From positions 1 through 60,979 of IMG/VR virus record IMGVR_UViG_3300023174_000178: a stretch of 60,979 nt of DNA; one strand, given 5' to 3'. Both the position numbers and the translations under genes were made by a program. This document shows, piece by piece, positions 33,642-49,903 of this stretch; positions within the stretch are counted from its first letter, which is position 1, and each line of letters opens with the position of its first letter. The notes under the pieces are model-generated. The model was not told the origin of the DNA. It saw only the letters and a program-made list of their open reading frames with translations, and searched no databases. The stretch is from a virus. Its lineage: Duplodnaviria > Caudoviricetes.

Positions 33642-33692
33642 GAATATTAGAGGTTTACATAACCGCTTAGTTACTCTATATAGAGGTTGAGA

Positions 33693-34538
33693 ATGGCAAA
33701 TAAGTTTCAATTCAAGCGCACGACAGTCGCTGGTCGTACAGCTAATACTACTGACGTAGCAAACTCGGCCTTTATTGATAAGGGCGAATTCGCGGTCAAC
33801 TTAACTGACCGTAAAGTATTCTCTTCAGATGCAGCCAATGCCATCTTCGAAGTTGGATCAAATCTTTCTTCTCTCGCTGTCACTACAGTTGTCGCCAACG
33901 GTTCTTCAGGCACCGCGGGACAAGTTCTCACGTCAAACGGATCCGGCGTTTATTGGGGAGTAGGAGGCGGTGGAGGCAATACATATGCAAGTATTGCAAC
34001 TTACACCTACACTATCGCTTCGAATACTACCGTTATTACTGGCGCAGATGATAATACAGATGTTCTTTCGTATACCGCTGGACTCGAAAGCGTATACCTG
34101 AACGGTTCGAAACAAGTTCTTACAACAGATTACTTGACAACAAACTCTGGTGCTATTACATTTACTTCAAACGTATTTGCTGCTGACGTCGTAGAAATTG
34201 TTTCTGTAACTCCTCAGCTTTCTGTTTTAGTCGCAGATTCAAACACTCGAACAACAAACACCACATCAAATACGACAGTCGATTCTTTTAGTGCCGCTAA
34301 TTATCGATCTGCTAAATATTATGTACAAATCACTTCGGGTACTGACTATCACGTGACAGAAGTTTTGCTTATTCATGATGGTACAGAAGTTTATATTACT
34401 GAATACGGCACAGTTTATTCAAACACATCACTCGGCAACGTAAGTGCAAATATTAATACTGGTTATGTAGAGTTGCTCGTCGCTCCTTCCAATTCAGCGA
34501 GTACAGTAAAAACTCGTCGTCTTGCGATAGAAGTATAA
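33693..34538 (+). CDS. Short fibre/adaptor protein
   Basis: FQFKRT...GEFAVNLTDRKVF N-terminus; C-terminal YRSAKYYVQ...EVLLIHDG....TEYGTV domain shared with ORF 26206. Confidence 0.75.
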   Translation: MANKFQFKRTTVAGRTANTTDVANSAFIDKGEFAVNLTDRKVFSSDAANAIFEVGSNLSSLAVTTVVANGSSGTAGQVLTSNGSGVYWGVGGGGGNTYASIATYTYTIASNTTVITGADDNTDVLSYTAGLESVYLNGSKQVLTTDYLTTNSGAITFTSNVFAADVVEIVSVTPQLSVLVADSNTRTTNTTSNTTVDSFSAANYRSAKYYVQITSGTDYHVTEVLLIHDGTEVYITEYGTVYSNTSLGNVSANINTGYVELLVAPSNSASTVKTRRLAIEV

Positions 34539-34541
34539 ATA
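34534..34541 (+). promoter_or_regulatory. T4-type late promoter
   Basis: TATAAATA overlapping the upstream stop, 30 nt before ORF 34571. Confidence 0.78.
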
Positions 34542-34570
34542 AAGATAAAATCTGAGGGATAGGGAACCAG

Positions 34571-37500
34571 ATGGCAACTCCAAATAATTTTCGCGTTAAG
34601 AACGGCTTAACTGCCGCAAATGGTGTAACGGTTACTACAGGAAACGTAGTAATTTCGAACGGTCAGCTCATAATTAATGGGACTGCCATTAACTCGACCA
34701 GCATCAGTCAATCTGCAAACAATGCATACGCTAACGCAGTCAACTATGCAGACGGTAAAGCAGCAGATGCCTATGGTAATGCCGTAGCAGTCGCGACCGG
34801 TTCTTCAACCAATGCATATAATAATGCAGTTGCTTTTGCTGCGAATGCTAGCAATCTCACGACTGGAACACTTTCTCTGAATCGCCTTCCTGCGACAGTC
34901 AACGTATCTCTTGCTCTAAATGTTACAAATACTGTTAACATTTCAACGAGTAATTTAACAGTTTCTCAGGCAAATGATGTTGCCACTCTTACAGGAACTG
35001 TACTTTCATTTACAGATAGCCTGACAGAATCTACCAACACATATTACGCTGCAGTTAGTCATGATAAACTGATTACTTCAAAAAATTATGCTGTTGCTAA
35101 CGTACTCTATTCAGACTACGGTGAAATTTCTCGAACTGGAATGTTTGCGGTTGTAGGTATAGACACAACGAATAGCTCGATCTATGTTCGAGGCGTGACT
35201 GTCAATACCTCGGTGATCGCAATCGGAAATACTACAGTATCCAGCTTCATCAACTCGACTGCCTTTTCTGGTAATGGTGCATCGCTTACTTCTGTGAATG
35301 CCGCGACAGTTGGTGGAAACTCTGCTTCAGATCTTCGAACATATGCAGAAACGTATGCATCGAATGCTACCAATCTCGCATCTGGTACTGTGAATTCTGC
35401 ACGTCTTCCATCAGCGAATGATACGACAGCAGGCGCAGTCATTCTTGTTAACTCAGTAACAAACACTTCTATTACCGCAGCAGCTTCTGCCAACTCGGTA
35501 AAAACTGCTTATGATGCTGCGATCGCAGCGAATACGGCTGGAGGAACTGCAGCAGCAACTGCTTATAGTAACGGTGTAACGTATACTGATAATAAGGCAG
35601 CAAACGCATACTCGAACGCTATTGCAATTGCAGCGAATGCCACGAATCTGACTTCTGGTACAGTAAACATTTCTCGTATTCCAACAGTCGACGCAGTCAA
35701 TAACACTTCGATTACACTGATTCCAGTGGCTAATAATGTGAAGACTGCTTATGACGCTGCTATTACTGCAAATACAAATGCCGCTTCTGCTCTTGCAAAT
35801 GCTGCCACAGCATATACGAATGCTATCGCAATTGCTGCGAATGCAACCAATCTGACTTCTGGTACAGTTAACGCCGCTCGTCTTCCATCAGCAAATGCTA
35901 CTGTAGCAGGCGCAACACTTCTTGTCGATTCAGTATCGAATACTTCGCCGACTGCAGCAGCTTCTGCCAACTCTGTAAAGACTGCTTATGATGCGGCCAT
36001 AGCTGCTAATACGCTTGCCAATACTGCAGCAACTTCAGCAACTTCAGCATATTCAAACGCGGTGACTTACACAGATACGAAGATCGGAACAGCAAATACG
36101 GCAATGGTCGCGAATGCTGGAGCTGCATATACCAATGCAATTACGATCGCAGCAAATGCAACGAATCTGGCTTCTGGTACAGTAGCATTCGCTCGTCTTC
36201 CTTCTGTCGACTCGATTAGCAATACTTCGGTCGCGTTAGTGCCAGTTGCTAACAATGTGAAGACTGCATATGATGCGGCTATCACTGCCAATACAAACGC
36301 TCAAACAGCACTCACTGCCGCAGGAGCTGCTTATACCAATGCTGTATCTTATACAGACACAAAAATAGGTACAGCTAACACCGCCATGGCAGCGAATGCC
36401 GCGGCTGCTTACACGAATGCTATCGCATTTGCAGCGAATGCTTCGAATGCAAACAACGGTACTCTTGCTGAAGCTCGTCTTCCATACCGTATGAATCAAG
36501 ATCTGAGAACAACAGATTCTCCAACTTTTGCAAACGGCACATTTAATGGTTCTGTTTCAGTCGGTGGAAGCCTTACAATTACTGGTAACTTGATTTCAAC
36601 TAACGTACAAACTCTTTCTGTTGCCGATCCTCTGATTAAATTAGCTGTGAATAACCCGAGCGACTTGCTTTGGATTGGATTCACTGGTCACTATAGTGGA
36701 TCAGGTAATACAACAAACCATGCTGGTCTTGTTCGTAGTCCAGATACAAAAGAATTCATCCTCATGTCGACATATGGAGATGAAACGGCTGTTGCAAATA
36801 ATAATACGATCAACGTCGCCGACGCATCGTTTTCGTATGCAAACTTGCAAGTCAGCTTATTAAAGGCAGGAAACTCTACGGTATTCTCTACGATCAATTC
36901 TACGGCATTCAGTCAAACTGCTAACAATGCGACGAATCTTGGTGGACAAGCTGCAGCTTATTATACCAATGCGACAAATATCAGTACAGGCACACTTCCT
37001 TTTGCAAGATTGCCTTCGTTGTTTATTGGAACAACTACAATTCAGTCTACGAGTGCCGCCCAAGCAGTAAGCGGTATCACTACACTTGCCGCAGGTAACA
37101 CTACGATTACTGGATTTGTCAATGCTACTTCTTCGGTTAACTCGGCTATCTTAGCAGTCGGAACAAACTTTGTTGCAAATACTACACAAACAACACTAGC
37201 AACAAATATGCTTTTGAATAATGATAAACAATTAAGATTCCAAACAGCTAATACATCATCATATGCTTACTTTGTACAGCAAAGCGATGATAATTTTGTA
37301 TTGTATAGTTCAAATACCGCTGGCGGTGCAAGACCTATTTGGAGTGTTTTTGCTAATAGTATAACATCAAGTTTTAGCTTATCGGTTCCGACATCTATGA
37401 GTGCAAACCTTGTGATGGCCAACAACAACATCACTCGACCAATTCTGACAGGTTACACTGAGCACGAAGTTGCTAATACGGCAGCGACTGGATCATATAG

Positions 37501-37786
37501 CCTCGATTGCGGCGCAGCCAACTTCTGGGATCTTACACTCACTGGTAATATTACAATTGCTCCGACTAACGTCCCACCAGCCACGAGAATGTGGGCAGGA
37601 ACGATCGCCGCGAAGCAAGATGCAACAGGAGGTCGTACGATCACGTGGCCTACTGGCAGTAAATATCCAGGCGGAGTCGCTCCTCCTGCAACAACAACCG
37701 CGAATGCTCTCGATATCTGGTCGCTGATGACTTATGATGCTGGTACTTCTTGGATTGTTTCTCTGACGGTGAAGGGCGCCGCATAA
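34571..37786 (+). CDS. Long tail fibre protein with alternating repeats
   Basis: AY.NA...AANATNL.SGTV...RLP units and tail-fibre-repeat-like G...L..S....S...AA.ANSVK.AYD; C-terminal LTLTGNIT...QDATGGRTITWP...YPGG..P domain. Confidence 0.8.
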   Translation: MATPNNFRVKNGLTAANGVTVTTGNVVISNGQLIINGTAINSTSISQSANNAYANAVNYADGKAADAYGNAVAVATGSSTNAYNNAVAFAANASNLTTGTLSLNRLPATVNVSLALNVTNTVNISTSNLTVSQANDVATLTGTVLSFTDSLTESTNTYYAAVSHDKLITSKNYAVANVLYSDYGEISRTGMFAVVGIDTTNSSIYVRGVTVNTSVIAIGNTTVSSFINSTAFSGNGASLTSVNAATVGGNSASDLRTYAETYASNATNLASGTVNSARLPSANDTTAGAVILVNSVTNTSITAAASANSVKTAYDAAIAANTAGGTAAATAYSNGVTYTDNKAANAYSNAIAIAANATNLTSGTVNISRIPTVDAVNNTSITLIPVANNVKTAYDAAITANTNAASALANAATAYTNAIAIAANATNLTSGTVNAARLPSANATVAGATLLVDSVSNTSPTAAASANSVKTAYDAAIAANTLANTAATSATSAYSNAVTYTDTKIGTANTAMVANAGAAYTNAITIAANATNLASGTVAFARLPSVDSISNTSVALVPVANNVKTAYDAAITANTNAQTALTAAGAAYTNAVSYTDTKIGTANTAMAANAAAAYTNAIAFAANASNANNGTLAEARLPYRMNQDLRTTDSPTFANGTFNGSVSVGGSLTITGNLISTNVQTLSVADPLIKLAVNNPSDLLWIGFTGHYSGSGNTTNHAGLVRSPDTKEFILMSTYGDETAVANNNTINVADASFSYANLQVSLLKAGNSTVFSTINSTAFSQTANNATNLGGQAAAYYTNATNISTGTLPFARLPSLFIGTTTIQSTSAAQAVSGITTLAAGNTTITGFVNATSSVNSAILAVGTNFVANTTQTTLATNMLLNNDKQLRFQTANTSSYAYFVQQSDDNFVLYSSNTAGGARPIWSVFANSITSSFSLSVPTSMSANLVMANNNITRPILTGYTEHEVANTAATGSYSLDCGAANFWDLTLTGNITIAPTNVPPATRMWAGTIAAKQDATGGRTITWPTGSKYPGGVAPPATTTANALDIWSLMTYDAGTSWIVSLTVKGAA
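35350..36490 (+). repeat. ABAB repeat array in the fibre shaft
   Basis: A = SAN.T.AGA..LV.SV.NTS.TAAASANSVKTAYDAA (near 35410, 35890); B = VD...NTS..L.PVANNVKTAYDAAITANTNA (near 35680, 36200). Confidence 0.85.
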
Positions 37787-39681
37787 TGAGTATCGGTGGT
37801 GGTTCAAAGTTTACATTAGAGAAAACGTGGCGTGGAGCTGGAACTGGAACGACCAAGTTTAACAGTCCAGGAAACATCGCGATTCCTTATGGCAGAAACA
37901 GCGTTCTTGTTTCTGGTCGAGGTGGCACAGGAACTGCACTCGTTCCTGGCCCCGGAACTGGAACATTTAATATCGTTGCCGGTAATGCCACTGGAACTTA
38001 TAACGTAATTCCTGGCAATGCCACTGGAACTTTCAACATCGTTCCTGGTAATGCGACTGGTACATTCAACATCGTACCAGGAAATATTGCCAACTACAAC
38101 ATTATTTTCCCAGGAACTGGCACGTTTAATATCTTAAATCCTGGAACCGGCGTGTATAACATCATTCCTGGCCCAGGAACTGGTACTTTTAATATCGTTC
38201 CAGGAAATTCGACTGGTACTTTTAATATCGTTCCAGGAAATGCAACCGGTACGTTTAATAAAGTTCCAGGTACTGGTTCAACTTTTAACATCGTCCCAGG
38301 AACAGGAACTGGCACGTTTAACATCGTTGCTGGAACAGGAACAGGTACTTTCAACATCGTACCAGGAAATATTGCCAACTACAACATTATTTTCCCAGGA
38401 ACCGGCACGTTTAACAAAGTTCCAGGTAATATTTCTGGCTATAACATTATTTTCCCAGGAACTGGCACGTTTAACATTGTTGCTGGAACAGGAACAGGTA
38501 CGTTTAACAAAGTTCCTGGTCCAGTAGCCAATTACAACATCGTTCCAGGAAATTCCACTGGTACGTTTAACGTCGTTCCAGGTAACGTGTCAGGTTATAA
38601 CATCGTTCCAGGTAACGTGTCAGGTTATAACGTAAATCCAGGCAACGTGGTAGGATATAACGTCGTTCCAGGAAATGCGACCGGTACTTATAACGTAGTT
38701 CCAGGCATACCGGGCAATAAAGCTACAAATGCATTTATCAGTCCAAAATTTGGATATACACCGGCTTTTTATAATGCTCCTGGTCCTCCATCTCCAGGTC
38801 CGCAAAACTTTAATGCGCCTTCGAATGGCCCTGCAAACTATAACTCTCCTTCAAACGGGCCAGCAAACTTTAATGCAGCGAGCAATGGTCCTGCAAACTT
38901 TAACGCTGCTTCAAATGGGCCAGCAAACTTTAACCCTGCTACCAATGGTCCTGCAAACTTCAATGCACCGACTAATGGCCCCCAAAACTTTAACCCTGCA
39001 ACCAATGGTCCTCAGAACTTCAACGTAGCGAATGGTCCTGCAAACTTCAATGCACCCACTAACGGGCCTCAGAACTTCAACGTAGCCAATGGTCCTGCTA
39101 ACTACAATGCTCCGACTGGAGGTCCTCAAAACTTTAACGCGCCGACAAATGGTCCTCAGAATTTTAACCCTGCAACGAATGGCCCGCAAAACTTCAACCC
39201 TGCAACGAATGGTCCTCAGAATTTTAACCCTGCAACCAACGGTCCTGCAAACTTTAATCCAGCGACAAATGGCCCACAAAACTTCAACGCGCCTACCAAT
39301 GGCCCGCAAAACTTTAACGTAGCCAATGGTCCACAAAACTTTAACGTAGCAAATGGCCCTGCAAACTACAACGCGCCAACCAATGGGCCTCAGAATTTCA
39401 ATCCTGCGACTAACGGACCGCAGAATTTCAACCCAGCGACAAACGGTCCACAGAACTTTAATCCAGCAACAAATGGTCCACAAAACTTTAATACGCCAAC
39501 TCCAGCTGTTCCAGGAAATCCATCGAATGCTCTAGGCATTACTTTCCCAGGATCAAATGCCGGAGGTACACCTGCTCCTGTAATAAATAGTCAGACGGCA
39601 AGCTACTATTCTTATCCGGATGGTCAATCACATTCGGTAACTGTAGCTCCTGGAGGATATATAGATATTACTATTGAATAA
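37786..39681 (+). CDS. Gly/Pro/Asn-rich protein: glycine-rich adhesin-like frame with a mirror-symmetric 24+24 repeat insert
   Basis: ATG overlaps the upstream stop (TAATG). Termini FNSPGNIAIPYGRNSVLVSGRGG ... PGNPSNALG..FPG..AGG ... GGYIDITIE resemble glycine-rich fibre tip domains; the middle is (GTFNIVPGNAT)-type x24 then (NGPQNFNPAT)-type x24. Confidence 0.85.
   Translation: MSIGGGSKFTLEKTWRGAGTGTTKFNSPGNIAIPYGRNSVLVSGRGGTGTALVPGPGTGTFNIVAGNATGTYNVIPGNATGTFNIVPGNATGTFNIVPGNIANYNIIFPGTGTFNILNPGTGVYNIIPGPGTGTFNIVPGNSTGTFNIVPGNATGTFNKVPGTGSTFNIVPGTGTGTFNIVAGTGTGTFNIVPGNIANYNIIFPGTGTFNKVPGNISGYNIIFPGTGTFNIVAGTGTGTFNKVPGPVANYNIVPGNSTGTFNVVPGNVSGYNIVPGNVSGYNVNPGNVVGYNVVPGNATGTYNVVPGIPGNKATNAFISPKFGYTPAFYNAPGPPSPGPQNFNAPSNGPANYNSPSNGPANFNAASNGPANFNAASNGPANFNPATNGPANFNAPTNGPQNFNPATNGPQNFNVANGPANFNAPTNGPQNFNVANGPANYNAPTGGPQNFNAPTNGPQNFNPATNGPQNFNPATNGPQNFNPATNGPANFNPATNGPQNFNAPTNGPQNFNVANGPQNFNVANGPANYNAPTNGPQNFNPATNGPQNFNPATNGPQNFNPATNGPQNFNTPTPAVPGNPSNALGITFPGSNAGGTPAPVINSQTASYYSYPDGQSHSVTVAPGGYIDITIE
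37960..38706 (+). repeat. Outgoing arm: 24 units of 10-11 aa, consensus GT(F/Y)NIVPGNAT
   Basis: Counted from the translation; includes an exact 53 bp DNA duplication at 38065 and 38350. Confidence 0.92.
38797..39501 (+). repeat. Return arm: 24 units of 9-10 aa, consensus NGP(Q/A)N(F/Y)NPAT
   Basis: Counted from the translation; four short NGPQNFNVA units. Confidence 0.92.
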
Positions 39682-39686: not shown

Positions 39687-39714
39687 TTGACAAGGATTTA
39701 CTATGCCATATAAT
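39687..39714 (+). promoter_or_regulatory. Consensus sigma70-type promoter
   Basis: TTGACA (39687-39692), 16 nt spacer, TATAAT (39709-39714); straddles the ATG at 39703. Confidence 0.45.
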
Positions 39715-40296
39715 ATCCCTAAGTATGGGAAACAATTGAACTGCTTTGCTGTATGGACAGGAGGATTTACTCCTGAAGAAGTCGATAAAATCATCGACCT
39801 CGAAAAACTTCAAGAGTTTGAAAAAGGTAAAGTCGGGCTAGAGAAGAATGCTCCGGCCCCAGTCGAAACGCGTGATTCAGATATCTCATGGATCCATCAT
39901 GATCAACACAGCGACTGGTTATTTCAGAGAATGTCTGGAATTATATCAGTAGTCAACTACGACAACTTTATGTATGACATTGAAGGTGTCGAGGCGTTTC
40001 AATATACCAAATATGGACCAAACCAACATTATACTTGGCACTGGGATGTCGAGTTCGGTTGGCAGAAATATATAAGAAAGATATCTGCATCTCTACTTCT
40101 TTCAGATCCTTCTGAATATGAAGGTGGAGAATTAGAGATCGTAAATACTGGAAATTTTGAAAGCAAAGTCTCATTTAAACCGAATAAAGGTGACATCGTA
40201 TTTTTCGCTTCGTGGATGCCGCATCGCGTGGCACCAGTCACTTCTGGTTTTCGTAGAAGTCTTGTAGCATGGGTAATGGGTGAAAGAGAATGTTAA
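39703..40296 (+). CDS. 2OG-Fe(II) oxygenase, prolyl-4-hydroxylase/PKHD-like
   Basis: HWD (HxD), RKIS...LLSDPSEYEGGEL, HRVAPVTSG.RRSLVAW (distal H and RxS). Confidence 0.92.
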   Translation: MPYNIPKYGKQLNCFAVWTGGFTPEEVDKIIDLEKLQEFEKGKVGLEKNAPAPVETRDSDISWIHHDQHSDWLFQRMSGIISVVNYDNFMYDIEGVEAFQYTKYGPNQHYTWHWDVEFGWQKYIRKISASLLLSDPSEYEGGELEIVNTGNFESKVSFKPNKGDIVFFASWMPHRVAPVTSGFRRSLVAWVMGEREC

Positions 40297-41027
40297 GTTG
40301 GAATCCTTTTAAGAAGAAACCTATCATTGAGTTTTATTGCCATCGTGATGACGTAGCCAGTTTACCACACCCAAAACCTGCAGCTAAACATATACCCGAG
40401 TGGTATAAGAGAATTCCTCCGCTCATTACAGATGGGCGAGATGATCGTGACTGGACTGGATCACATAGTTTCACTGCAAAAAAATGTATGCCAATGATCG
40501 ATGCTATGTCGTTGGGTTATGTTATTCCTCTTATCGGCGACTTGACAGTTAGATCAAATCATGACTGCAGTACGATTGAAGTCACGTCTTCTCCACAAAT
40601 CAACGTATGCGAGTTTCATGACATTCGACAATTGGGAGAAAGAAATGCGCCAGGTTTTCCTGCGCCTCCTTTAAAGTTTGTCAATCCATGGATCGTAAAA
40701 ACAGCTCCAGGTTGGTCGACTCTTTTTATAGCTCCGATTAATAACTTTGAAAGTCATTTCACATGTCTGTCAGGATTAGTCGATACTGATACATATCCAA
40801 AAGAAGTCAATTTTCCTGCAATATGGCATACACCAAATGCTGATGTGCTTTTGCTAGCAGGAACTCCTTTGGTAATTGCAATTCCAATTAAGCGTGATGC
40901 CGTTCCATCAAAACCTACTATCAGGAACATGAAAGATGACGAGCAACGCCTGGTTAATATCATAACGAAGATGCAAAACACACGTAGAAGTGTATATACG
41001 AAAGAACTGAGAGTGCCAAGAAAATGA
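40290..41027 (+). CDS. Conserved hypothetical protein, paralog A (DUF6065-like)
   Basis: IPEWYK...KKCMP..DAM..GY.IP, KF.NPW..KT.PGWS.LF..P, G.VDTD, NFP, GTPL...IP; family often seen next to phage oxygenases. Confidence 0.7.
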   Translation: MLSWNPFKKKPIIEFYCHRDDVASLPHPKPAAKHIPEWYKRIPPLITDGRDDRDWTGSHSFTAKKCMPMIDAMSLGYVIPLIGDLTVRSNHDCSTIEVTSSPQINVCEFHDIRQLGERNAPGFPAPPLKFVNPWIVKTAPGWSTLFIAPINNFESHFTCLSGLVDTDTYPKEVNFPAIWHTPNADVLLLAGTPLVIAIPIKRDAVPSKPTIRNMKDDEQRLVNIITKMQNTRRSVYTKELRVPRK

Positions 41028-41764
41028 AAGAGATGTTTTCTTTTTTGAAACCAAAGAAAGATATTCAATTCGTAGACACGAAGAAGTTGTCTTATCATAA
41101 CTTTTCTGTTGAACGAGCCGTCGATGTTCCAACAAATACTCGTAAAGTCCAACAAGACAAGTATGGTAAGCATCTCATGCCATACTGCCCGGGAATTTTA
41201 GACTATGCTCAGTTTGGATATATCATTCCTGCATGGGTAGATATTCATATCATGGCAAATAAAGCTGGCACTTCATGGTATCTCGGAGATAAGGGCTCAA
41301 GAGGAGATCGTGGATTTGATAATGGGGTCCCAATGGAAGAAAAGTTTGTAGATGGTGCTTTTACACCAGTTGGAATTAATCCTGCTGCCATTCTATTTCC
41401 ATCTCCTTGGAAAATTTTTACTCAAAAAAATATCAGCGCGCTGCTAATGCCGGCGTTCTATCACTCTACCTTTCTTGATGATCTATACGTGACTCCAGGT
41501 TTGGTAGATTATAAAAACTTTCATGTCACCAACTTTATTTGCATGCCAAAAAGAGAATGTAATGTTCACATCAAAGCCGGAGAACCTTTAATACATGTAA
41601 TTCCTTTCCTCAACAAGGATATTACTGCTTCTGTTGGTCCTGCTACTGATGAGATGATAGATAAAACTACAAATCTCATTCCTGGTGACGATAAGCAATA
41701 CTATCGAAAGTTTATGGGAGTGAAAAAGAAATTTAATATGCAAAAAGAAGAGATTAAACAATGA
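41024..41764 (+). CDS. Conserved hypothetical protein, paralog B (DUF6065-like)
   Basis: CPGILDY...GYIIPAW.D, SPW, PGLVD, GEPLIHVIP aligning with the upstream paralog. Confidence 0.7.
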   Translation: MKEMFSFLKPKKDIQFVDTKKLSYHNFSVERAVDVPTNTRKVQQDKYGKHLMPYCPGILDYAQFGYIIPAWVDIHIMANKAGTSWYLGDKGSRGDRGFDNGVPMEEKFVDGAFTPVGINPAAILFPSPWKIFTQKNISALLMPAFYHSTFLDDLYVTPGLVDYKNFHVTNFICMPKRECNVHIKAGEPLIHVIPFLNKDITASVGPATDEMIDKTTNLIPGDDKQYYRKFMGVKKKFNMQKEEIKQ

Positions 41765-42783
41765 ATATTTTTGTTTCAGTATGCTCGTACCAAGATCCTT
41801 TACTTCCTCATACCATTAAGAGTATGATGCAAACCAAATCAAATAGAAACAACGTAGTCTATTCGATTTTTGAACAAACTCGTTATGAAGATTCATTGGC
41901 ATGTACAGAACCAGTGCTCGTAAGTCGAGATGATGTCATCTATAAAAGAATCGATCCAGAATATTCTGACGGATGTGTTTGGGCAAGATATATTAATATG
42001 CTAAACTTGACAACAGAGTATGACTTCATCTATCAAGTCGACTCTCATATGTTACACGATCTCAATTGGGATCGTTCTCTAGTTGAAGATTATAAGAGAG
42101 CGATGGATATTGCTGGAACAAATAAAGTTATCATTACTGGATCATGCAAATCATTTTCAATCGAAGAAGTAGATGGAGAGATTAAAACTTATCCTCGACA
42201 TGATGAACATGATGCTTGCAAAGTAAAATACTATACTATCGATCCTCATAATTTTATTCCAGATGTTCATGGAGATCAGATTCCATCAACTGACATGCCG
42301 CAACCGGCGTTTCATATTATGGCTGGAAACTTTTTTACGCATACTGACTGGATCGATGAAGTCGGTTTAGATCCAAAGATCTTCTTCCGCGGAGAAGAAA
42401 TCATGATGACGATGATGTCATATGCTGCTGGATATAAGATGTTTCATCATAGTAAGATAGTATCATATCATCTTGAGAACACCGGAAATTGGCATACGAA
42501 GACTCCTCCCGAAGATGCGAAGGCAGCTCGAAGAAGAGAAATACTTGCTGAAATTGGAGTGTGGAGATGGAAGCAATATCTCGAAGCATGCAGAGAAGAT
42601 CTTCTTGTTCAGTTTCATGAAGAATTTGGAATTGACTTTATTAATCTCGTCATCGAAGATCGCGCCCGAACTTATAGTCTTGATGCGATTCCTGGTAAAG
42701 TTGATGTCCTTGCCATTTCGAAGAAACAAAAGAAGAAAGTCAAGTTGCCTAAAACTCTTTTTATGAGTGAAGATGAAGAATGA
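41761..42783 (+). CDS. Glycosyltransferase resembling Skp1-hydroxyproline GlcNAc transferase (GT60/Gnt1-like)
   Basis: IFVSVCSYQDP...TI, GCVWAR, QVDSH....NWD, AGNFF, DP.IFF.GEE, GY..FH....YH. Confidence 0.82.
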   Translation: MNIFVSVCSYQDPLLPHTIKSMMQTKSNRNNVVYSIFEQTRYEDSLACTEPVLVSRDDVIYKRIDPEYSDGCVWARYINMLNLTTEYDFIYQVDSHMLHDLNWDRSLVEDYKRAMDIAGTNKVIITGSCKSFSIEEVDGEIKTYPRHDEHDACKVKYYTIDPHNFIPDVHGDQIPSTDMPQPAFHIMAGNFFTHTDWIDEVGLDPKIFFRGEEIMMTMMSYAAGYKMFHHSKIVSYHLENTGNWHTKTPPEDAKAARRREILAEIGVWRWKQYLEACREDLLVQFHEEFGIDFINLVIEDRARTYSLDAIPGKVDVLAISKKQKKKVKLPKTLFMSEDEE

Positions 42784-43313
42784 TAGTATGTTCTCTCCCA
42801 CGTTGCGGAGCCACGAAGTTTTGTCTTGATCTTCAAGAAAAAATAGGTATGCCGTTTGTTGGAGAGTTACATCCTATTCATATTGGGAATACACGTAAAG
42901 CAGATGCGCACGAAACTCACCATCAAGAGAACTTTACTCCGGAAAGATTTGCCGATCTTCTAAGTTATAATAAAGATAATATCATTCTTATCAATCAACA
43001 TTCATATCTTAAGATTAATCAGGCGTCGTTCGTAGTGCTACGAAAGAATATGAGAGATGCATACCTAAGCTTTGCAAACTTTTTATTAAAAATGTATCCT
43101 GAATTAAAACCTAATGCTATTAAACATCAAGTCGACTTAATGCATAATGATTATTTGGCGATAAGAGCTTACTTAGATAAATACCCTAGAGAAATAGTTT
43201 GGTACGAAGAATACTTCGAAGTATCAGGGACCAGAACTCCTCTCTTGGATGCATATCCAGGAAAAGAAGCCATCATAAAACAAATAGACGGGTATCATGG
43301 GACACACATTTGA
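42780..43313 (+). CDS. Short sulfotransferase-like protein
   Basis: N-terminal SLPRCGAT (5'-PSB-like loop), GEL, VLRKN.RDAYLS (3'-PB-like), WYEE. Confidence 0.55.
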   Translation: MIVCSLPRCGATKFCLDLQEKIGMPFVGELHPIHIGNTRKADAHETHHQENFTPERFADLLSYNKDNIILINQHSYLKINQASFVVLRKNMRDAYLSFANFLLKMYPELKPNAIKHQVDLMHNDYLAIRAYLDKYPREIVWYEEYFEVSGTRTPLLDAYPGKEAIIKQIDGYHGTHI

Positions 43314-44028
43314 TAGAAGATATGTTCTTACATTCGTGCAGCTTACATGCCCGATTATTGCAGCGTGGGCAATATACACCTATGCCACTCTTCCGTGGCT
43401 GATTGCTGCAGTTGCTATGTTCTTCTTAATGAGAACTGTTGGCGGGGTCATCACGTATCATCGGATTCATAGCCATCGCACTCATACCATGAATCCTATT
43501 ATGGAATTCATAGGCACTGCTCTCGGTTTTTATGGATCCTTTACTTCGCCTGTCGAGTTTTGCGCTACACATAATAATCACCACAAATATGTAGACTCTC
43601 ACAAGGATCCTCATCCTCATACAATTATCGGATGGAGAACGTTGTTTCCTTTATTGTGGAACGAGAGCGGAATTAAAGATGGAGACATTCGCACCGTTGT
43701 TCGTCTTCGTAAGAATAAGATCACTAATCTGTTCTACGAACACTTCTGGTTAATGCTAACACTTCCATTCCTTCTATTACTTGTTTCAGTTCAAGCATAC
43801 TTCTTCTTGTACTTCATACCTTTCACATTTTCTATTTGGTCGGCGGCATTCTCTACGTTTAATCACGATGAGAATGGGCCGAAGAACATGGGATTTTGGT
43901 ATGGGATCATGAGTGGAGGAGAACATTGGCATAAGTGGCATCATGATCATCCTTACGATACGAGCGGAGAAGGATGGCTAAATACTGTAGCAGATTTTAT
44001 AGCCACAAAGAGAGTTGTTAAGAGATGA
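43297..44028 (+). CDS. Membrane-bound fatty acid desaturase-like di-iron enzyme
   Basis: Three His boxes HRIHSH, HNNHH (then D...DPH) and GEHWHKWHH, with hydrophobic helices between them. Confidence 0.88.
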   Translation: MGHTFDRRYVLTFVQLTCPIIAAWAIYTYATLPWLIAAVAMFFLMRTVGGVITYHRIHSHRTHTMNPIMEFIGTALGFYGSFTSPVEFCATHNNHHKYVDSHKDPHPHTIIGWRTLFPLLWNESGIKDGDIRTVVRLRKNKITNLFYEHFWLMLTLPFLLLLVSVQAYFFLYFIPFTFSIWSAAFSTFNHDENGPKNMGFWYGIMSGGEHWHKWHHDHPYDTSGEGWLNTVADFIATKRVVKR

Positions 44029-44573
44029 ATATCAATCATGTAATAATTCATAGTCTAGATGAAGTCGATTTTGACGGCATCTATGATGGTAGTTTAGATT
44101 CTATCGAAAAGAACTGGCCAACAAATAATAGTCTTCAAGGAACAGAAATAAAAAATCGCGTCAGAGATATAATTCAAAGTGCACTTGATAATGAATGGCC
44201 CGGATTAAATCCACGTACGCCGCATGATGCGCATATTTTATTTAAGCACGTTGATTTAGATACAGGAATTGACATGGGACTGGTGAGTGCCTATATTACT
44301 TCAGATGGAACCTTAGACGGCAGACATTCTTTTTCTCGAGCCACCTCAGATGGTTCTCGTAATTATTTGTATTTGGCAGAAACTGTCGAAAATCGTAATC
44401 AATTTTATAGAGATATCGGTATAACAAAAATAAAATACAACCTTCCAAAAGATTCCCATTTATACAAATTTTTAAAGTACAAGGCAGGATCTGGGAATTA
44501 TGAAATCCTCGAAGATTTTGAAAATCCTGAAATGGCCGGTTTTAGAATAGTAATTACCGCCCCAGCTTTATGA
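44025..44573 (+). CDS. Hypothetical protein
   Basis: 182 aa, coupled by ATGA overlaps on both sides; no family recognised. Confidence 0.7.
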   Translation: MNINHVIIHSLDEVDFDGIYDGSLDSIEKNWPTNNSLQGTEIKNRVRDIIQSALDNEWPGLNPRTPHDAHILFKHVDLDTGIDMGLVSAYITSDGTLDGRHSFSRATSDGSRNYLYLAETVENRNQFYRDIGITKIKYNLPKDSHLYKFLKYKAGSGNYEILEDFENPEMAGFRIVITAPAL

Positions 44574-45274
44574 AGTTTCTATTAAATGTGGGTGCCGAGA
44601 AAGCTGGCACCTCTTGGCTATATCATTATTTTCGAAACCATCCAGAATTCTATGATATGGGAAAAGAACTGAATATCATTCAGAGAGATGATTTGGTTCC
44701 TATCCTAGAGGATGTAGACGAATATAGAAAAGACGTAGAGTCTTTCTTTCGAGCAGTTTCAAATGTAAATCAGGTAACAGGCGACTTCACACACTATGAA
44801 GGCTCGAGCGAGAACGTCTTTCGACTCATAAAGAACGGCTTACTGAAGCACGATATCGAAGTAGTGCCGGTCTATATTATGAGAGATCCTATCCAAAGAG
44901 CGTGGTCTGCTTGGAATTGTCTAGGAGGAGGTAAGATTTTAGCTAAATCTCCCGCTTCACAGTTTGTGATGACTAATTTTATGTCATGCAAATACAGAGA
45001 AACGATAGAAGCTTTAGATAGTGTTTTCCCAAATCCTTTGTATTTCTTCTATGAGGATTTTTTTACTCAAGACAATATCAATAAGATATGCGATGAGTTA
45101 CAGATTTCTCATCATCCGGCAAAATGCGAAACTAGAATCAACGCTTCTTCTTATAAGAAAATGTCAAGCATCTTCTTAAAAACTTTTGGCAAATCTCAGA
45201 AGAATAAAACAGCCGCTAAATATATTTTTGAAAGATTTGAAAATGTACCATGGAAACTCGAGGATTATTCGTAG
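44570..45274 (+). CDS. Sulfotransferase family protein
   Basis: NVGAEKAGTSWLY.Y...HP (5'-PSB), KE, GDFT..Y, IMRDPIQRAWS (3'-PB), FYED. Confidence 0.85.
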   Translation: MKFLLNVGAEKAGTSWLYHYFRNHPEFYDMGKELNIIQRDDLVPILEDVDEYRKDVESFFRAVSNVNQVTGDFTHYEGSSENVFRLIKNGLLKHDIEVVPVYIMRDPIQRAWSAWNCLGGGKILAKSPASQFVMTNFMSCKYRETIEALDSVFPNPLYFFYEDFFTQDNINKICDELQISHHPAKCETRINASSYKKMSSIFLKTFGKSQKNKTAAKYIFERFENVPWKLEDYS

Positions 45275-45836
45275 ATCTACTCTTGACGAAGATCTTCGCC
45301 TAAGATTGCTTGAAGGTTTAAAAAGCCCAGTACACATGCACTACTTCCATCGTAACGAGGCTACAAACGCGACAGATGAAGCTGTACTCGAGTTTCTCGA
45401 CAGAGAACAGTTTAACTGCAATAAAACCCATATCGAATATTGGTATCAATCTCAAGAAGGTTCTGGAGATTTATGGCCTCATGTGGATTTTAATGAGAAA
45501 CTTCGAGATAGAATTAATGCTGGGGAAAAACTAAAACCAGAAGAACTGATGTCTCCAATTACCATCGCGTGTTATTTAGAGGTAACCGACCTTGAAGGTG
45601 GAGAATTCTGTATCTCTGAAAGAAGTTGGCTCGACTATAAAAAAGAACAAAGTCTTCCGGAAGGTTTAAAAGAAGAGTTGCTCAAATATACTCACGAGTC
45701 TTTTCAGCCTTTCGAAGGCGCAGTCTTATACTTCGAAGGCAGCAGATATTACCATTGGATCAACGAGGTCAAGCGAGGATCTCGTAAGAGCATACTGATC
45801 AATTTCTGGGACGATTGCAGCCTTAAGTCCACTTAG
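45243..45836 (+). CDS. 2OG-Fe(II) oxygenase
   Basis: WPHVD (HxD), CYL....LEGGEF, YYHWINEV..G.R.SILINFW; ATG at 45243 preferred over TTG at 45186. Confidence 0.8.
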   Translation: MYHGNSRIIRRSTLDEDLRLRLLEGLKSPVHMHYFHRNEATNATDEAVLEFLDREQFNCNKTHIEYWYQSQEGSGDLWPHVDFNEKLRDRINAGEKLKPEELMSPITIACYLEVTDLEGGEFCISERSWLDYKKEQSLPEGLKEELLKYTHESFQPFEGAVLYFEGSRYYHWINEVKRGSRKSILINFWDDCSLKST

Positions 45837-46575
45837 TTCCATGTTTTGAGCTATATTTCGTTTCAGGATCGTATGCAGCAAAGTCTTCGTAGCGAGGATC
45901 TCCTGGTTCAGCTCTCTTGCCGATGCTGTATTCGCCGATATGATTGACGATGTTATAGCCTTCTTCAGTCTTTAGCTTGCATGTCTGCATACCAAGTTGC
46001 TGCAATGATTTTGCTACAACATACTCGCTTAAGTTCTTTTCGCCTACTGATTCGGCATGAGGAAGATCTACTATGGCACGCGGAAAAACACTTGCCAAAC
46101 TCCAAAAATATGCTTCAGAAAGCTCGCCACGGTATTTTCCGAGTGTAATGTCTGTTTCATAAGCCTGTGTTTCCTCTTCAAAGTCATACCATTTCTGTCG
46201 TGTCAAACATACTTGAGAAACGTTACGATAGTCATGAAGAATCTGAGTCATGTCGAGCATTCGAATAGGACAGTTGAACGTCACATCATCTTCAGATAGG
46301 TATACGTAATCATAATCTCGTTCTCTCAGTAGTTCGAAGGTTCGATTCCATACATATGGCAAACCCATATTCTGTTGATGTAGGAAGATCTCAGTAAATC
46401 CAAAATTCTTGGCCAACTCGAACATCGTGCCGTCATGCCGACCTTTTGGCATGTCATCGATAAAGATGCCTTCGACTTGACATCCACTCATGTCTAACAT
46501 ATCTCGCTGAGATTTCAGTGTTGGAATCAAATACTCAAGACGATTCGTCGACCATATGATCTTACAAACTTTCAT
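45823..46575 (-). CDS. GT-A fold (GT2-like) glycosyltransferase
   Basis: R.EYL..TL.S, IFIDD, N.G, YVYLSEDD (DxD-like), HIG. Confidence 0.75.
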   Translation of the reverse strand: MKVCKIIWSTNRLEYLIPTLKSQRDMLDMSGCQVEGIFIDDMPKGRHDGTMFELAKNFGFTEIFLHQQNMGLPYVWNRTFELLRERDYDYVYLSEDDVTFNCPIRMLDMTQILHDYRNVSQVCLTRQKWYDFEEETQAYETDITLGKYRGELSEAYFWSLASVFPRAIVDLPHAESVGEKNLSEYVVAKSLQQLGMQTCKLKTEEGYNIVNHIGEYSIGKRAEPGDPRYEDFAAYDPETKYSSKHGTKWT

Positions 46576-47123
46576 CGCGATGACTCCGTATCAAAGAAGA
46601 ATGTTTGAAAGAGTCGACCATCATATAGATCTTTGCCAAAGTAATCTAAACTGGCATGGAAGAGGTCGCCGCTATAGAGAACTAATCGATTGTATTTGTT
46701 ACCTACAATATCGATCCGATCCCACTTGGTATAATCATATGCCTCGTGCTCGTTTGTTGGAGCTCGATACTCACCTGTTTCTTTGTGTCGAAACAGACCA
46801 GTGCCTGCAGTATGCGGTGCATCAGGCGTGAGGTAGCATACACCAGCCCACATACTCGTATGATCGCAATGGATCCACGTTCTATCTGAAGCAGTAGCGT
46901 ATTGAAAAGCGCCAGTATATCCCGAATCTTCGTGCCAATTGGTAATCTTTCCAATTGGATTCATCCAATGTTGAATGCAATCCTTGACATCTTGAGTCAT
47001 GAAAGAAGGCGTTCGTTTTCCTGGATAGTTGCCTGTGACACTAAAGTCTTGAGTCAAAGCAAAGGCTCTGACTGCATCTGGATTGATATAAAAGTTATCG
47101 ATAATCATCAAGTCTAAATTCAT
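46572..47123 (-). CDS. 2OG-Fe(II) oxygenase-like protein (DUF6445-like)
   Basis: IIDNFY.NPD.VR..AL, YPG.RT, WIHCD, WAGVCYLTP....GT, NKYNRLVLY....FH, RLFQTFF. Confidence 0.8.
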   Translation of the reverse strand: MNLDLMIIDNFYINPDAVRAFALTQDFSVTGNYPGKRTPSFMTQDVKDCIQHWMNPIGKITNWHEDSGYTGAFQYATASDRTWIHCDHTSMWAGVCYLTPDAPHTAGTGLFRHKETGEYRAPTNEHEAYDYTKWDRIDIVGNKYNRLVLYSGDLFHASLDYFGKDLYDGRLFQTFFFDTESSR

Positions 47124-47154: not shown

Positions 47155-47162
47155 TATTTATA
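47155..47162 (-). promoter_or_regulatory. T4-type late promoter driving the minus-strand oxygenase/GT pair
   Basis: TATTTATA on + (TATAAATA on -), about 30 nt upstream of the 47123 start. Confidence 0.75.
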
Positions 47163-47952: not shown

Positions 47953-47955
47953 TAC

Positions 47956-49514: not shown

Positions 49515-49903
49515 TGAGCAATGAACTTGATAAATTTTTAAACATCGCCTCAGGCGATAACTTACCAGCTGTGATCGAAAAGAAGATGAGTACGCAAGTC
49601 TCAGCTGACTTTGAGTATGCTCGCGAGAACATGATGGAAGTTATCAATAAGGGACAAGAAGCACTCTTTGATTTGATGGATGTGGCCAAACAAAGCCAAC
49701 ACCCTCGAGCATATGAAGTCTTAGCCACCATGATGAGCACGATGGTAGGAGCGAGTAAAGACTTGCTTGATCTTCAGGCCAAAAAGAAGAAGATCATGGA
49801 AGACGATCCTTCGGCTTCTCCTCAGCAAGTCACAAACAATCTTTTCGTAGGTTCGACAGCAGAGTTACAGAAATATCTGAAGCAGCACAAAGATGGCGAG
49901 TGA
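49514..49903 (+). CDS. gp16: Terminase small subunit
   Basis: DFEYAREN, A..SQHPRAYEV, TNNLFVGST.ELQK. Confidence 0.92.
   Translation: MSNELDKFLNIASGDNLPAVIEKKMSTQVSADFEYARENMMEVINKGQEALFDLMDVAKQSQHPRAYEVLATMMSTMVGASKDLLDLQAKKKKIMEDDPSASPQQVTNNLFVGSTAELQKYLKQHKDGE

What the first reader, a model, noticed from the sequence alone, without database searches (positions are those of the whole stretch)
41761..42783. Skp1-hydroxyproline GlcNAc-transferase-like gene downstream of a prolyl-hydroxylase-like gene
The motif string IFVS..SY.DP, G..WAR, Q.DSH...WD, AG.FF, F.GEE fits the GT60/Gnt1 family, whose characterised members transfer GlcNAc to hydroxyproline or to Thr/Ser of proteins. This is the strongest single clue that the island's substrate is protein rather than DNA.
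Basis: partly seen in the sequence, partly recalled or inferred. Interest (0 to 1): 0.7.

Follow-up and report, generated by a model that had tools for sequence, protein, structure and literature searches.

The report
Phage GT60 glycosyltransferase in fibre-modification cassette
A T4-like water phage carries a sugar-adding enzyme of the family that glycosylates proteins in amoebae and parasites, always beside a proline-hydroxylase-like enzyme and a fast-evolving repeat protein, so the phage probably sugar-coats one of its own fibre-like proteins.

Summary
ORF 41761-42783 (+, 340 aa) matches Pfam PF11397 (E 2.2e-25, 90 bits against a cut-off of 21). PF11397 = CAZy GT60 is my recollection. A confident model (pLDDT 87) is closest to polypeptide GalNAc-transferases (Z 22.4, against 19.8 or less for generic GT-A enzymes).

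The window is a fragment of a T4-like aquatic myovirus. The gene closes a conserved cassette: hypervariable Pro/Asn/Thr-rich repeat protein, P4H-like 2OG oxygenase, two DUF6065 genes, GT60. Of 108 related loci with at least 2.5 kb upstream, 102 keep this order and 5 have an oxygenase paralogue directly before GT60. GT60 domains fused to P4H-like domains recur in metagenomic proteins. The genes sit in a tightly packed unit behind a T4-type late-promoter motif at a fibre gene.

Best reading (about 0.5): cytoplasmic O-glycosylation of the phage's own repeat protein, on hydroxyproline or Thr/Ser.

New complication: DUF6065 has a dUTPase fold, so a nucleotide-directed role is not excluded. Skp1-pathway membership is not supported. 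Donor, acceptor and linkage are untested.

The parts
41761..42783 (+). GT60-family (PF11397) GT-A glycosyltransferase, 340 aa. It appears soluble: the first beta-strand starts at residue 2. DxH motif at D94-S95-H96. The C-terminal tail from about residue 305 is disordered.
39703..40296 (+). P4H-like 2OG-Fe(II) oxygenase (2OG_a), 197 aa. H113-x-D115, H174 and R184 are invariant.
   Evidence: PF13640 E 8.3e-18. PDB sequence hits are PKHD-type hydroxylases at E 5e-7 and a prolyl 4-hydroxylase (5c5t) at E 1.7e-3. Invariant residues.
40290..41027 (+). DUF6065 paralogue a, 245 aa, dUTPase/dCTP-deaminase fold. It keeps a motif-III-like GLVDTDTYPKE.
   Evidence: PF19541 E 1e-12; phrog_7084; model pLDDT 78.6; fold hits
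41024..41764 (+). DUF6065 paralogue b, 246 aa, about 20% identical to paralogue a.
   Evidence: phrog_7084 E 1.6e-20; alignment A2
37786..39681 (+). Hypervariable repeat protein (631 aa from the ATG at 37786). N- and C-terminal segments are conserved. The interior holds 11-residue (TGTFNIVPGNA-like) and 10-residue (NGPQNFNPAT-like) arrays. This is the candidate acceptor.
34571..37786 (+). Tail-fibre-like protein, 1071 aa, first gene of the tightly packed unit.
   Evidence: phrog_9017 tail fiber E 1.2e-13; Phage_fiber_2 repeat, weak
34534..34541 (+). TATAAATA, the T4-type late-promoter motif, 30 nt before the fibre gene.
   Evidence: 10 matches against 3.1 expected, with 0 of 100 shuffles reaching 10..
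42780..43313 (+). 177-aa protein with a sub-threshold sulfotransferase resemblance. It belongs to the variable part of the island.
   Evidence: PF00685 E 0.097, below cut-off. Only 50-65% identical in relatives whose GT60 is 87-98% identical.
43297..44028 (+). Fatty-acid-desaturase-like membrane protein with histidine boxes, 243 aa. Variable part of the island.
   Evidence: PF00487 E 7e-6, 26.4 bits, below the 29.7 cut-off
44025..44573 (+). 182-aa protein with no family assignment. Variable part of the island.
44570..45274 (+). Sulfotransferase-domain protein, 234 aa.
   Evidence: PF00685 E 3.3e-6, 27.1 bits against a cut-off of 22
45186..45836 (+). Second 2OG-oxygenase-like protein (2OG_b). 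The start codon is uncertain.
   Evidence: PF13640 E 8.2e-5, 23.9 bits, below the cut-off of 27
45823..46575 (-). 250-aa protein with a weak glycosyltransferase resemblance. It keeps its place next to gp13 in distant relatives.
   Evidence: phrog_2456 E 1.5e-5
46572..47123 (-). DUF6445 protein, 183 aa, behind a minus-strand TATAAATA at 47155-47162.
   Evidence: PF20043 E 8.2e-15
28269..29993 (+). Collagen-repeat tail-fibre protein, an alternative acceptor. In distant relatives its homologue lies directly after the cassette.
   Evidence: PF01391 E 4e-21 and Gp53-like_C

Best explanation
ORF 41761-42783 encodes a soluble, Mn-dependent-type (DxH) GT-A glycosyltransferase of the PF11397 family (CAZy GT60, recalled). 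It is the last gene of a conserved, apparently late-expressed cassette of aquatic T4-like myoviruses. The cassette runs: hypervariable repeat protein, P4H-like 2OG oxygenase, two dUTPase-fold DUF6065 paralogues, GT60. The most likely mechanism is as follows. During late infection, in the host cytoplasm, the oxygenase hydroxylates residues of the newly made repeat protein, most plausibly proline in recurring x-P-A-T/S units. The GT60 enzyme then transfers a sugar from a UDP-sugar onto that hydroxyl, or directly onto Thr/Ser. By family analogy the sugar would be GlcNAc, alpha-linked. The result would be a glycosylated fibre-like virion protein. Shown here: family, fold, catalytic motifs, synteny, domain fusions and operon structure. 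Inferred: that the acceptor is a protein, which protein it is, the modified residue, the sugar, and virion incorporation. The role of the DUF6065 pair is unknown.
For: (1) Family. PF11397 scores 90 bits against a cut-off of 21. All 109 hits carry PF11397. The nearest Atlas clusters are 100% PF11397 and mostly Uroviricota.
(2) Known members. The characterised GT60 enzymes I could confirm in print all glycosylate polypeptides: Gnt1 on Skp1 hydroxyproline and TcOGNT on mucin threonine (passages in PMC6939170, and PMC9472816).
(3) Fold. The model (pLDDT 87.2, pTM 0.85) matches polypeptide GalNAc-transferases first. These fill all 28 Foldseek rows listed through rank 47. In VIA-align they take ranks 1-28 with Z 22.4-19.9 and 252-284 aligned residues. 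Generic GT-A enzymes follow at Z 19.8-17.9 with 187-248 aligned.
(4) Synteny. I examined 147 loci that carry a GT60 gene, forming 27 clusters at 70% identity. Of 125 with at least 800 bp upstream, 119 have DUF6065 and 5 have a 2OG oxygenase directly upstream. Of 108 with at least 2.5 kb upstream, 102 read 2OG-DUF-DUF-GT60. Of 73 with at least 4.5 kb upstream, 72 have a repeat protein of the same family. This holds down to 38% GT60 identity.
(5) Fusions. Of the best 150 representatives, 54 are 600 aa or longer and most carry tandem GT60 domains. Ten of these hit my 2OG_a profile. Pfam confirms PF13640 above cut-off in P0112, P0114, P0117 and P0130. P0137 joins GT60 to a protein O-fucosyltransferase domain and a PLOD GT domain. 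None carries DUF6065.
(6) Packing. Genes from 34571 to about 45274 overlap by 4-17 nt or are at most 21 nt apart. The only exact TATAAATA before them is at 34534.
(7) No anchor. The model shows no membrane anchor or signal sequence.
(8) Rarity in cells. The subfamily matched only 1 locus in the genome collection of 185,579 species.
Against: No biochemical data exist for any member of this subfamily. The two genes between the oxygenase and GT60 have a dUTPase/dCTP-deaminase fold: the top 22 of 48,161 chains belong to that superfamily, at Z 11.3-6.7. Their homologues in Halorubrum phage HF2 and cyanophage S-RIM4 lie beside ribonucleotide reductase, which points towards nucleotides. Proline is not universal in the repeats: the L144 repeat protein is only 4% Pro, and only [YF]N occurs in all 41 repeat-protein clusters. 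The tandem GT60 arrays in metagenomic proteins show that some GT60-like domains probably extend glycans rather than start them. In the one lineage where an oxygenase directly precedes GT60, that paralogue lacks the distal iron-binding His (8 of 74 unique sequences). The relation to eukaryotic Gnt1 could not be tested, because no eukaryotic GT60 sequence was reachable. The published default reading for glycosyltransferases in this hypervariable region is host LPS modification (PMC7029224 passages).
Confidence: 0.5

Rival explanations
1. Host envelope remodelling. The enzyme adds a sugar to host LPS, O-antigen, capsule or a lipid-linked precursor. This would block superinfection or alter receptors, as is usually assumed for glycosyltransferases in the tail-fibre hypervariable region of marine T4-like phages.
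For: Passages in PMC7029224 give this reading for pelagimyophage and cyanomyophage glycosyltransferases. The island also holds a sulfotransferase, a desaturase-like membrane protein and a second weak glycosyltransferase. GT-A enzymes of polysaccharide synthesis are the next-best structural matches, only about 2.5-3 Z units below.
Against: The confirmed GT60 activities are on polypeptides. The conserved partners are a P4H-like oxygenase and a repeat protein, not sugar-nucleotide or lipid-carrier genes. The sulfotransferase and desaturase part is the variable part and is missing from several relatives. The model shows no membrane segment.
Confidence: 0.15
2. Nucleotide or DNA modification. The oxygenase, the two dUTPase-fold proteins and the transferase build or attach a glycosylated pyrimidine, loosely like base J or glucosyl-hydroxymethylcytosine.
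For: DUF6065 has a dUTPase fold and keeps a motif-III-like G-x-V-D-x-D-x-Y. Its homologues lie next to ribonucleotide reductase in HF2 and S-RIM4. An oxygenase with a GT-A transferase is the logic of base J synthesis (JGT is described as GT-A in PMC9472816).
Against: The oxygenase is P4H/PKHD-like, not Tet/JBP. Neither the window nor a 75%-complete relative (G001) has a Tet_JBP match (controls did not ring). G001 has no thymidylate-synthase/dCMP-hydroxymethylase match and no canonical dUTPase match (controls rang in 10 and 11 of 14). The cassette sits inside the structural-gene unit behind a late-promoter motif. GT60-P4H fusions exist without DUF6065. I could not find dUTPase motifs I, IV and V by eye in alignment A2.
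Confidence: 0.1
3. Protein glycosylation, but of another acceptor or at another step. The target could be the collagen-repeat fibre or a host protein. Alternatively, the enzyme could extend a glycan that another transferase starts.
For: In distant relatives a collagen-repeat fibre gene directly follows the cassette. The window has one at 28269-29993. Tandem GT60 domains in single proteins suggest stepwise glycan assembly. Other transferases lie nearby: 45823-46575 here, and a GT4 gene in L047.
Against: The repeat-protein gene, not the collagen gene, is the neighbour kept in 72 of 73 informative loci. In the window the collagen gene is about 10 kb away. In many loci GT60 is the only transferase within the conserved core.
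Confidence: 0.15

Closest known systems
PhyA-Gnt1 arm of the Skp1 hydroxyproline glycosylation pathway (Dictyostelium, Toxoplasma; CAZy GT60)
   Same: The same Pfam family. A soluble cytoplasmic enzyme. Functionally linked to a P4H-type 2OG oxygenase, here through conserved synteny and domain fusions (PMC6939170 passages).
   Different: There is no Skp1. The candidate acceptor is a repetitive phage protein with many potential sites rather than one proline. Two dUTPase-fold genes are part of the unit. No PgtA or AgtA-type extending enzymes were seen. The phylogenetic relation to Gnt1 was not testable here.
[quoted passage not shown]
   Same: The same family. Their acceptors are Thr residues in repetitive, Pro/Thr-rich mucin-like sequences (PMC9472816 passages). 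The phage repeats likewise carry Thr/Ser next to Pro.
   Different: The trypanosome enzymes are located in the Golgi. The phage protein has no anchor and is paired with an oxygenase.
Polypeptide GalNAc-transferases (GT27)
   Same: The best structural match: Z 22.4, 259-284 aligned residues. DxH motif. The F-x-G-E-E segment looks like the Gal/GalNAc-T motif (that correspondence is recalled, not aligned here).
   Different: Only 11-15% identity. No sequence-level match to any PDB chain. No ricin-type lectin domain.
Virion glycosylation in mycobacteriophages (Freeman et al. 2023)
   Same: Phage-encoded glycosyltransferases next to structural genes modify virion proteins. I saw this paper only as a reference entry and in titles that mention it. 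Its content is recalled.
   Different: A different host group and, as far as I recall, other transferase families. No hydroxylase step and no repeat-protein partner.
Giant-virus collagen hydroxylation and glycosylation (mimivirus L230; chlorovirus prolyl hydroxylase)
   Same: The logic of a virus-encoded hydroxylase plus transferase acting on a repetitive viral structural protein. Viral GTs modifying collagen-like proteins are mentioned in bioRxiv 10.1101/2020.07.30.228163. The L230 details are recalled.
   Different: Eukaryotic viruses. Hydroxylysine-glucose chemistry in L230. Another transferase family.

Membership tests
Pfam PF11397 / CAZy GT60 | Significant match to the family profile over most of its length | tested here: met
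   E 2.2e-25 and 90.3 bits against a cut-off of 21. Profile positions 2-49 and 94-305 of 352 are matched. The equivalence of PF11397 with CAZy GT60 is recalled, not tested.
Pfam PF11397 / CAZy GT60 | GT-A fold with a DxH metal-binding motif and a later conserved His | tested here: met
   The model is GT-A. D94-x-H96 is invariant, and Y236-H237 is invariant. That H237 is the third metal ligand is inference.
Pfam PF11397 / CAZy GT60 | UDP-GlcNAc donor, retaining (alpha) transfer | not testable with these tools
   Needs an enzyme assay.
Pfam PF11397 / CAZy GT60 | Polypeptide acceptor (hydroxyproline or Thr) | not testable with these tools
   Only context bears on this: synteny with the repeat protein and oxygenase, and fusions.
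Pfam PF11397 / CAZy GT60 | Groups with characterised eukaryotic members in a tree | not tested
Skp1 hydroxyproline glycosylation pathway | A Skp1 substrate is present | tested here: inconclusive
   No PF01466 match in the window. However, the record is 36% complete and the control genomes did not ring. Skp1 is a eukaryotic SCF subunit (established knowledge), so none is expected in a phage or its bacterial host.
Skp1 hydroxyproline glycosylation pathway | A PhyA-type prolyl 4-hydroxylase acts first | tested here: inconclusive
   A P4H-superfamily oxygenase with an intact H-x-D...H...R is linked. Orthology to PhyA and proline specificity were not tested.
Trimeric dUTPase superfamily (for the DUF6065 neighbours) | dUTPase beta-barrel fold | tested here: met
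   The top 22 of 48,161 chains are dUTPases or dCTP deaminases, at Z 11.3-6.7. The next match is at Z 5.5.
Trimeric dUTPase superfamily (for the DUF6065 neighbours) | All five conserved dUTPase motifs, and a match to the family profile | tested here: not met
   PF00692 finds nothing in the 75%-complete relative G001, which holds the cassette, while ringing in 11 of 14 controls. Only a motif-III-like segment is visible in alignment A2. The motif definitions are recalled.

The most novel reading that the evidence does not exclude
Aquatic T4-like phages carry a complete hydroxyproline O-glycosylation system: a P4H-like oxygenase, a GT60 transferase and a new dUTPase-fold accessory pair. The system decorates a hypervariable fibre protein at dozens of repeat sites. 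This would give a glycan-coated host-recognition or shielding structure. The phage and bacterial P4H-GT60 pairing, including the fused proteins, would then represent the prokaryotic-world counterpart, and possibly the source, of the eukaryotic PhyA-Gnt1 oxygen-sensing pathway.
Probability: 0.25. Interest if true: 0.85.

Novelty: new variant of a known kind. Interest (0 to 1): 0.6.

Why it matters
GT60 enzymes are known from protists, where one arm couples oxygen-dependent prolyl hydroxylation to glycosylation of Skp1. A large viral subfamily locked to a P4H-like oxygenase would give that eukaryotic pathway a testable prokaryotic-virus relative. It would also assign a concrete job to some of the many unexplained 2OG oxygenases of marine and freshwater T4-like phages. 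It would add a second, mechanistically different case of phage virion glycosylation. The candidate acceptor varies greatly between near-identical phages, so the system could bear on host range and on how phages evade recognition. In seven searches of the paper library I found no description of PF11397/GT60 in phages, and none of DUF6065. Subscription journals and supplements were not searchable.

Tried and rejected
(1) megablast of the island against 50,697 phage records found no match.
(2) PDB sequence searches with the protein and with its profile gave only chance-level hits, E 0.24 or worse. No GT60 structure could therefore be used.
(3) A complex prediction for the oxygenase with GT60 gave no verdict: score 0.00 against a mark of 0.32, and controls were not run. 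This is no evidence either way.
(5) Two word-indexed protein searches returned only the phage-type subfamily. No named eukaryotic GT60 came back, so no tree with Gnt1 or TcOGNT could be built.
(6) The 2461-aa fused protein P0112 was not found in viral contigs, so its context is unknown.
(7) The genome-contig scan gave one 4.4-kb MAG contig only.
(8) Four of five long contigs given as handles were not held and so were not searched.
(9) I considered and rejected reading the collagen repeats as classical X-Pro-Gly hydroxylase sites. Pro there is mostly in G-P-Q, so it is not followed by Gly.
(10) I considered proline as the universal target and downgraded it. One repeat-protein lineage is only 4% Pro.
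(11) I considered a Thaumarchaeota host, because an 87%-identical protein is labelled as a Nitrosarchaeum MAG. I rejected that label as a guide. The flanking genes are T4-like gp13, gp14, gp15, gp17 and gp18, and the terminase is 57% identical to those of Synechococcus phages. The host remains unknown.
Full report
**What the window is.** The window is an IMG/VR virus record of 60,979 bp, estimated 36% complete. Genes at 47209-54914 match T4-type neck, tail-sheath-stabiliser, large terminase and sheath families. Genes at 10489-18450 match baseplate wedge subunits. A collagen-repeat fibre and a 1071-aa fibre lie at 28269-37786. The terminase is at best 57% identical to those of Synechococcus phages. 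This is therefore a distant T4-like aquatic myovirus with an unknown host.

**The observation.** The ORF listing gives ORF 41761..42783 (+), 340 aa. Its start and stop overlap the neighbouring genes by 4 nt. The only slip is that six residues, not three, separate DSH from WD.

Pfam PF11397 'Glycosyltransferase (GlcNAc)' matches at E 2.2e-25 and 90.3 bits, against a cut-off of 21. PHROGs gives a glycosyltransferase family. All 109 homologues from the word-indexed search carry PF11397. A profile of 27 of them finds 3607 representatives at E <= 1e-3 and 226 at E <= 1e-30 among 1.84 billion.

**Fold.** AlphaFold2 on that alignment gives pLDDT 87.2 and pTM 0.85. A beta-strand starts at residue 2 and the tail after about residue 305 is disordered. 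The protein therefore appears soluble.

Foldseek against the PDB lists only polypeptide GalNAc-transferases in the 28 rows shown through rank 47 (best E 6e-12). VIA-align puts them at ranks 1-28 with Z 22.4-19.9, rmsd 3.0-4.7 and 252-284 aligned residues. Generic GT-A enzymes follow at Z 19.8-17.9 with 187-248 aligned. That gap is real but modest. No PDB chain matches at sequence level, so no GT60 structure was available for comparison.

**What GT60 enzymes are known to do.** From passages I read, Gnt1 is the UDP-GlcNAc:hydroxyproline Skp1 alpha-GlcNAc-transferase. It depends on prior action of the prolyl hydroxylase PhyA and belongs to GT60 together with the T. cruzi polypeptide alpha-GlcNAc-transferase (PMC6939170). 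TcOGNT1 makes GlcNAc-alpha-O-Thr on mucin-like proteins (PMC9472816). That PF11397 corresponds to CAZy GT60 is my recollection.

**The cassette.** Upstream of the gene lie three others:
- a P4H-like oxygenase (39703-40296; PF13640, E 8.3e-18);
- DUF6065 paralogue a (40290-41027);
- DUF6065 paralogue b (41024-41764).

The oxygenase keeps H-x-D, a distal His and an Arg. Its nearest solved relatives by sequence are PKHD-type hydroxylases (E 5e-7) and a prolyl 4-hydroxylase (E 1.7e-3). Directly before it lies a 631-aa repeat protein (37786-39681) with 33-nt and 30-nt tandem arrays.

In 44 close viral loci (GT60 72-98% identical), the order repeat protein, oxygenase, DUF6065a, DUF6065b, GT60 is kept wherever the contig reaches. 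The downstream genes are much more diverged or absent: two sulfotransferase-like genes, a desaturase-like gene, an unknown gene and a second oxygenase.

I then fetched distant relatives and scored all loci with local profiles. The window's own loci L001-L002 and the three annotated phage regions L069-L071 were left out.
- 147 loci carry a GT60 gene. Several are the same contig fetched twice. They form 48 clusters at 90% and 27 at 70% GT60 identity.
- Of 125 loci with at least 800 bp upstream, 119 have DUF6065 directly upstream, 5 have an oxygenase, and 1 has neither. That exception is L054, a weak 23%-identical hit inside a 689-aa protein.
- Of 108 loci with at least 2.5 kb upstream, 102 read oxygenase-DUF-DUF-GT60 and 5 have the oxygenase directly upstream.
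- Of 73 loci with at least 4.5 kb upstream, 72 have a repeat protein of the same family.

**The alternative arrangement.** One lineage (L055, L056, L128 and others) has repeat protein, oxygenase paralogue, GT60, repeat protein, oxygenase, DUF, DUF. In this lineage the paralogue next to GT60 has lost the distal His. This applies to 8 of 74 unique oxygenase sequences; the other 66 are intact.

**The repeat proteins.** They share about 50 N-terminal and about 65 C-terminal residues. Their interiors differ completely between lineages. Examples are TGTFNIVPGNA and NGPQNFNPAT here, and TNYNVAYPIANQPATAW, ASYNPRNVAGY and ATYNPPTYPT elsewhere. L056 also has long PPPPPPPE runs.

Across 41 clusters, [YF]N is universal. 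[NQ]-P-A-[ST] occurs three or more times in 28 of 41 clusters, with a median of 5 against 0.2 in shuffles. Repeats inflate such counts and the clusters are related, so this is only a lead for an acceptor motif. One lineage (L144) has only 4% Pro, so proline cannot be the sole conserved feature. The 10-residue array resembles pentapeptide-repeat proteins of Caulobacter phages.

**Domain fusions.** Among the best 150 representatives, 54 are 600 aa or longer, and most of these hold two to four GT60 domains. Ten hit my oxygenase profile. Pfam was run on 15 of the 150:
- PF13640 is above cut-off in P0112, P0114, P0117 and P0130, and below cut-off in P0127 and P0138.
- P0112 and P0117 also carry an AhpC/TSA domain.
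- P0137 joins a protein O-fucosyltransferase domain, two GT60 domains and a PLOD GT domain.
- P0111, P0124, P0129, P0133 and the L057 gene join GT60 to a methyltransferase (for L057).

None has DUF6065 or repeat-protein segments. The hydroxylase-GT60 link is therefore independent of the DUF6065 pair. The fused proteins come from metagenomes, one of them labelled a proteobacterial MAG. Their context could not be fetched.

**Expression context.** The T4 late-promoter consensus TATAAATA (established for T4) occurs 10 times against 3.1 expected, and none of 100 shuffles reached 10. By my reading, nine of these lie within 80 nt upstream of an ORF start on the same strand.
- One site is at 34534, before the 1071-aa fibre gene.
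- The next exact sites are at 47155 (-) and 47168 (+), before the DUF6445 gene and gp13.
- A relaxed AATAAATA sits at 39583.
- From 34571 to about 45274 the genes overlap by 4-17 nt or are at most 21 nt apart.

This fits late co-expression with virion genes. That is inference, not measurement.

**The complication.** A model of DUF6065a (pLDDT 78.6) has the dUTPase/dCTP-deaminase fold. In a search of 48,161 chains that did not depend on Foldseek, the top 22 all belong to that superfamily (Z 11.3-6.7), and the next match is at Z 5.5 (Foldseek agrees). A segment GLVDTDTYPKE resembles dUTPase motif III, and D165 is invariant in both paralogues. I did not see the other motifs, whose definitions I recall rather than tested.

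Homologues at 31-35% identity occur in 52 phage records, mostly haloarchaeal myoviruses, plus three cyanophage records. In HF2 and S-RIM4 they sit beside ribonucleotide reductase. A nucleotide-directed role therefore cannot be dismissed.

Against a DNA-modification reading:
- The oxygenase is not Tet/JBP-like. Neither the window nor G001, a 75%-complete relative, has a Tet_JBP match (controls did not ring).
- G001 has no thymidylate-synthase/dCMP-hydroxymethylase match and no canonical dUTPase match. For those two the controls rang in 10 and 11 of 14 genomes.

Absence from incomplete records is weak evidence.

**Distribution.** Only 4 of 50,697 phage records hold a relative, all Xanthomonas or Stenotrophomonas jumbo phages at 25-27% identity. 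In Xoo-sp13 the gene lies beside a carbamoyltransferase and not far from DNA polymerase. A scan of one genome per 185,579 species with the subfamily's motifs found one 4.4-kb MAG contig. The nearest Atlas clusters are mostly Uroviricota. The subfamily therefore looks essentially viral and uncultured.

**Verdict.** The gene is a genuine GT60-family transferase. It is most plausibly the glycosylating step of a phage cassette that modifies its own hypervariable repeat protein after hydroxylation. I give that reading about 0.5. Hydroxyproline as the linkage is perhaps half of that. Host-glycan modification, a different protein acceptor or glycan extension, and nucleotide/DNA chemistry share most of the rest. 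It is not a member of the Skp1 pathway, although it may work like its first two steps.

Seven searches of the paper library found no description of PF11397/GT60 in phages, and none of DUF6065. The published default for transferases in this genomic region is host LPS modification (PMC7029224 passages).

Noticed in passing
window 40290-41764: The two DUF6065 genes have a dUTPase/dCTP-deaminase fold (Z up to 11.3). They are about 20% identical to each other and occur in tandem in nearly all relatives. Homologues in haloarchaeal myoviruses and cyanophage S-RIM4 sit next to ribonucleotide reductase. DUF6065 appears to have no published function.
   Followed up: partly
window 39687-39714: A perfect sigma-70 consensus (TTGACA, 16 nt, TATAAT; 12 of 12) overlaps the start codon of the oxygenase gene. 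The -10 hexamer lies inside codons 3-4, so it may be a coding coincidence. Conservation in relatives was not checked.
   Followed up: no
L055:3393-3968, L056:7426-8001, L128:7426-8001, L130:4892-5467 and others: In the lineage where an oxygenase paralogue directly precedes GT60, that paralogue has lost the distal iron-binding His (A or S instead). In L130 it has also lost the Asp. It may be a non-catalytic partner.
   Followed up: partly
L056:3763-5691 and L056:5514-6491: Repeat proteins here end in long PPPPPPPE runs followed by poly-Gly. The two ORFs overlap in different frames over the poly-Pro stretch, so there may be a frameshift or an assembly problem.
   Followed up: no
P0112 (2461 aa), P0114, P0117, P0137: Giant metagenomic proteins carry up to four tandem GT60 domains plus GT2-like, AhpC/TSA peroxiredoxin and P4H-like domains. 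P0137 joins a protein O-fucosyltransferase, two GT60 domains and a PLOD-type GT domain. Their organisms and contexts are unknown.
   Followed up: partly
L057:7980-9551; P0111, P0124, P0129, P0133: GT60 is fused to a SAM-dependent or FkbM-type methyltransferase, which hints at methylated sugars in some lineages.
   Followed up: no
window 42780-45836 compared with L003-L046: Mosaicism. Relatives with 98% identical GT60 have only 40-61% identical genes at 42780-44573. Others with 88% identical GT60 have 99-100% identical copies of those genes. This points to recombination between the core cassette and the sulfotransferase/desaturase-like block.
   Followed up: partly
L022-L045 (e.g. L024, L037): A second arrangement of the region. 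Here gp13, DUF6445 and the 250-aa transferase-like gene lie upstream and inverted relative to the cassette. An extra diverged oxygenase-DUF6065 pair (about 40% identity) lies downstream on the other strand.
   Followed up: no
P0005: An 87%-identical protein is deposited as 'GlcNAc-transferase family protein' of a Nitrosarchaeum MAG. Given the T4-like flanks, this is probably a phage contig binned with an archaeal genome.
   Followed up: no
window 37786-39681: The conserved N-terminal segment (F..PG...IPYGR....VSGRGG.G) and the conserved C-terminal segment of the repeat proteins might form one globular domain, with the repeat arrays as an insertion. The 10-residue array resembles pentapeptide-repeat proteins of Caulobacter phages.
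   Followed up: no
window 45823-47123 (- strand): The DUF6445 gene and the 250-aa transferase-like gene form a pair next to gp13 with their own TATAAATA at 47155 (-). The pair keeps its place in distant relatives L047, L051, L053 and L058.
   Followed up: no
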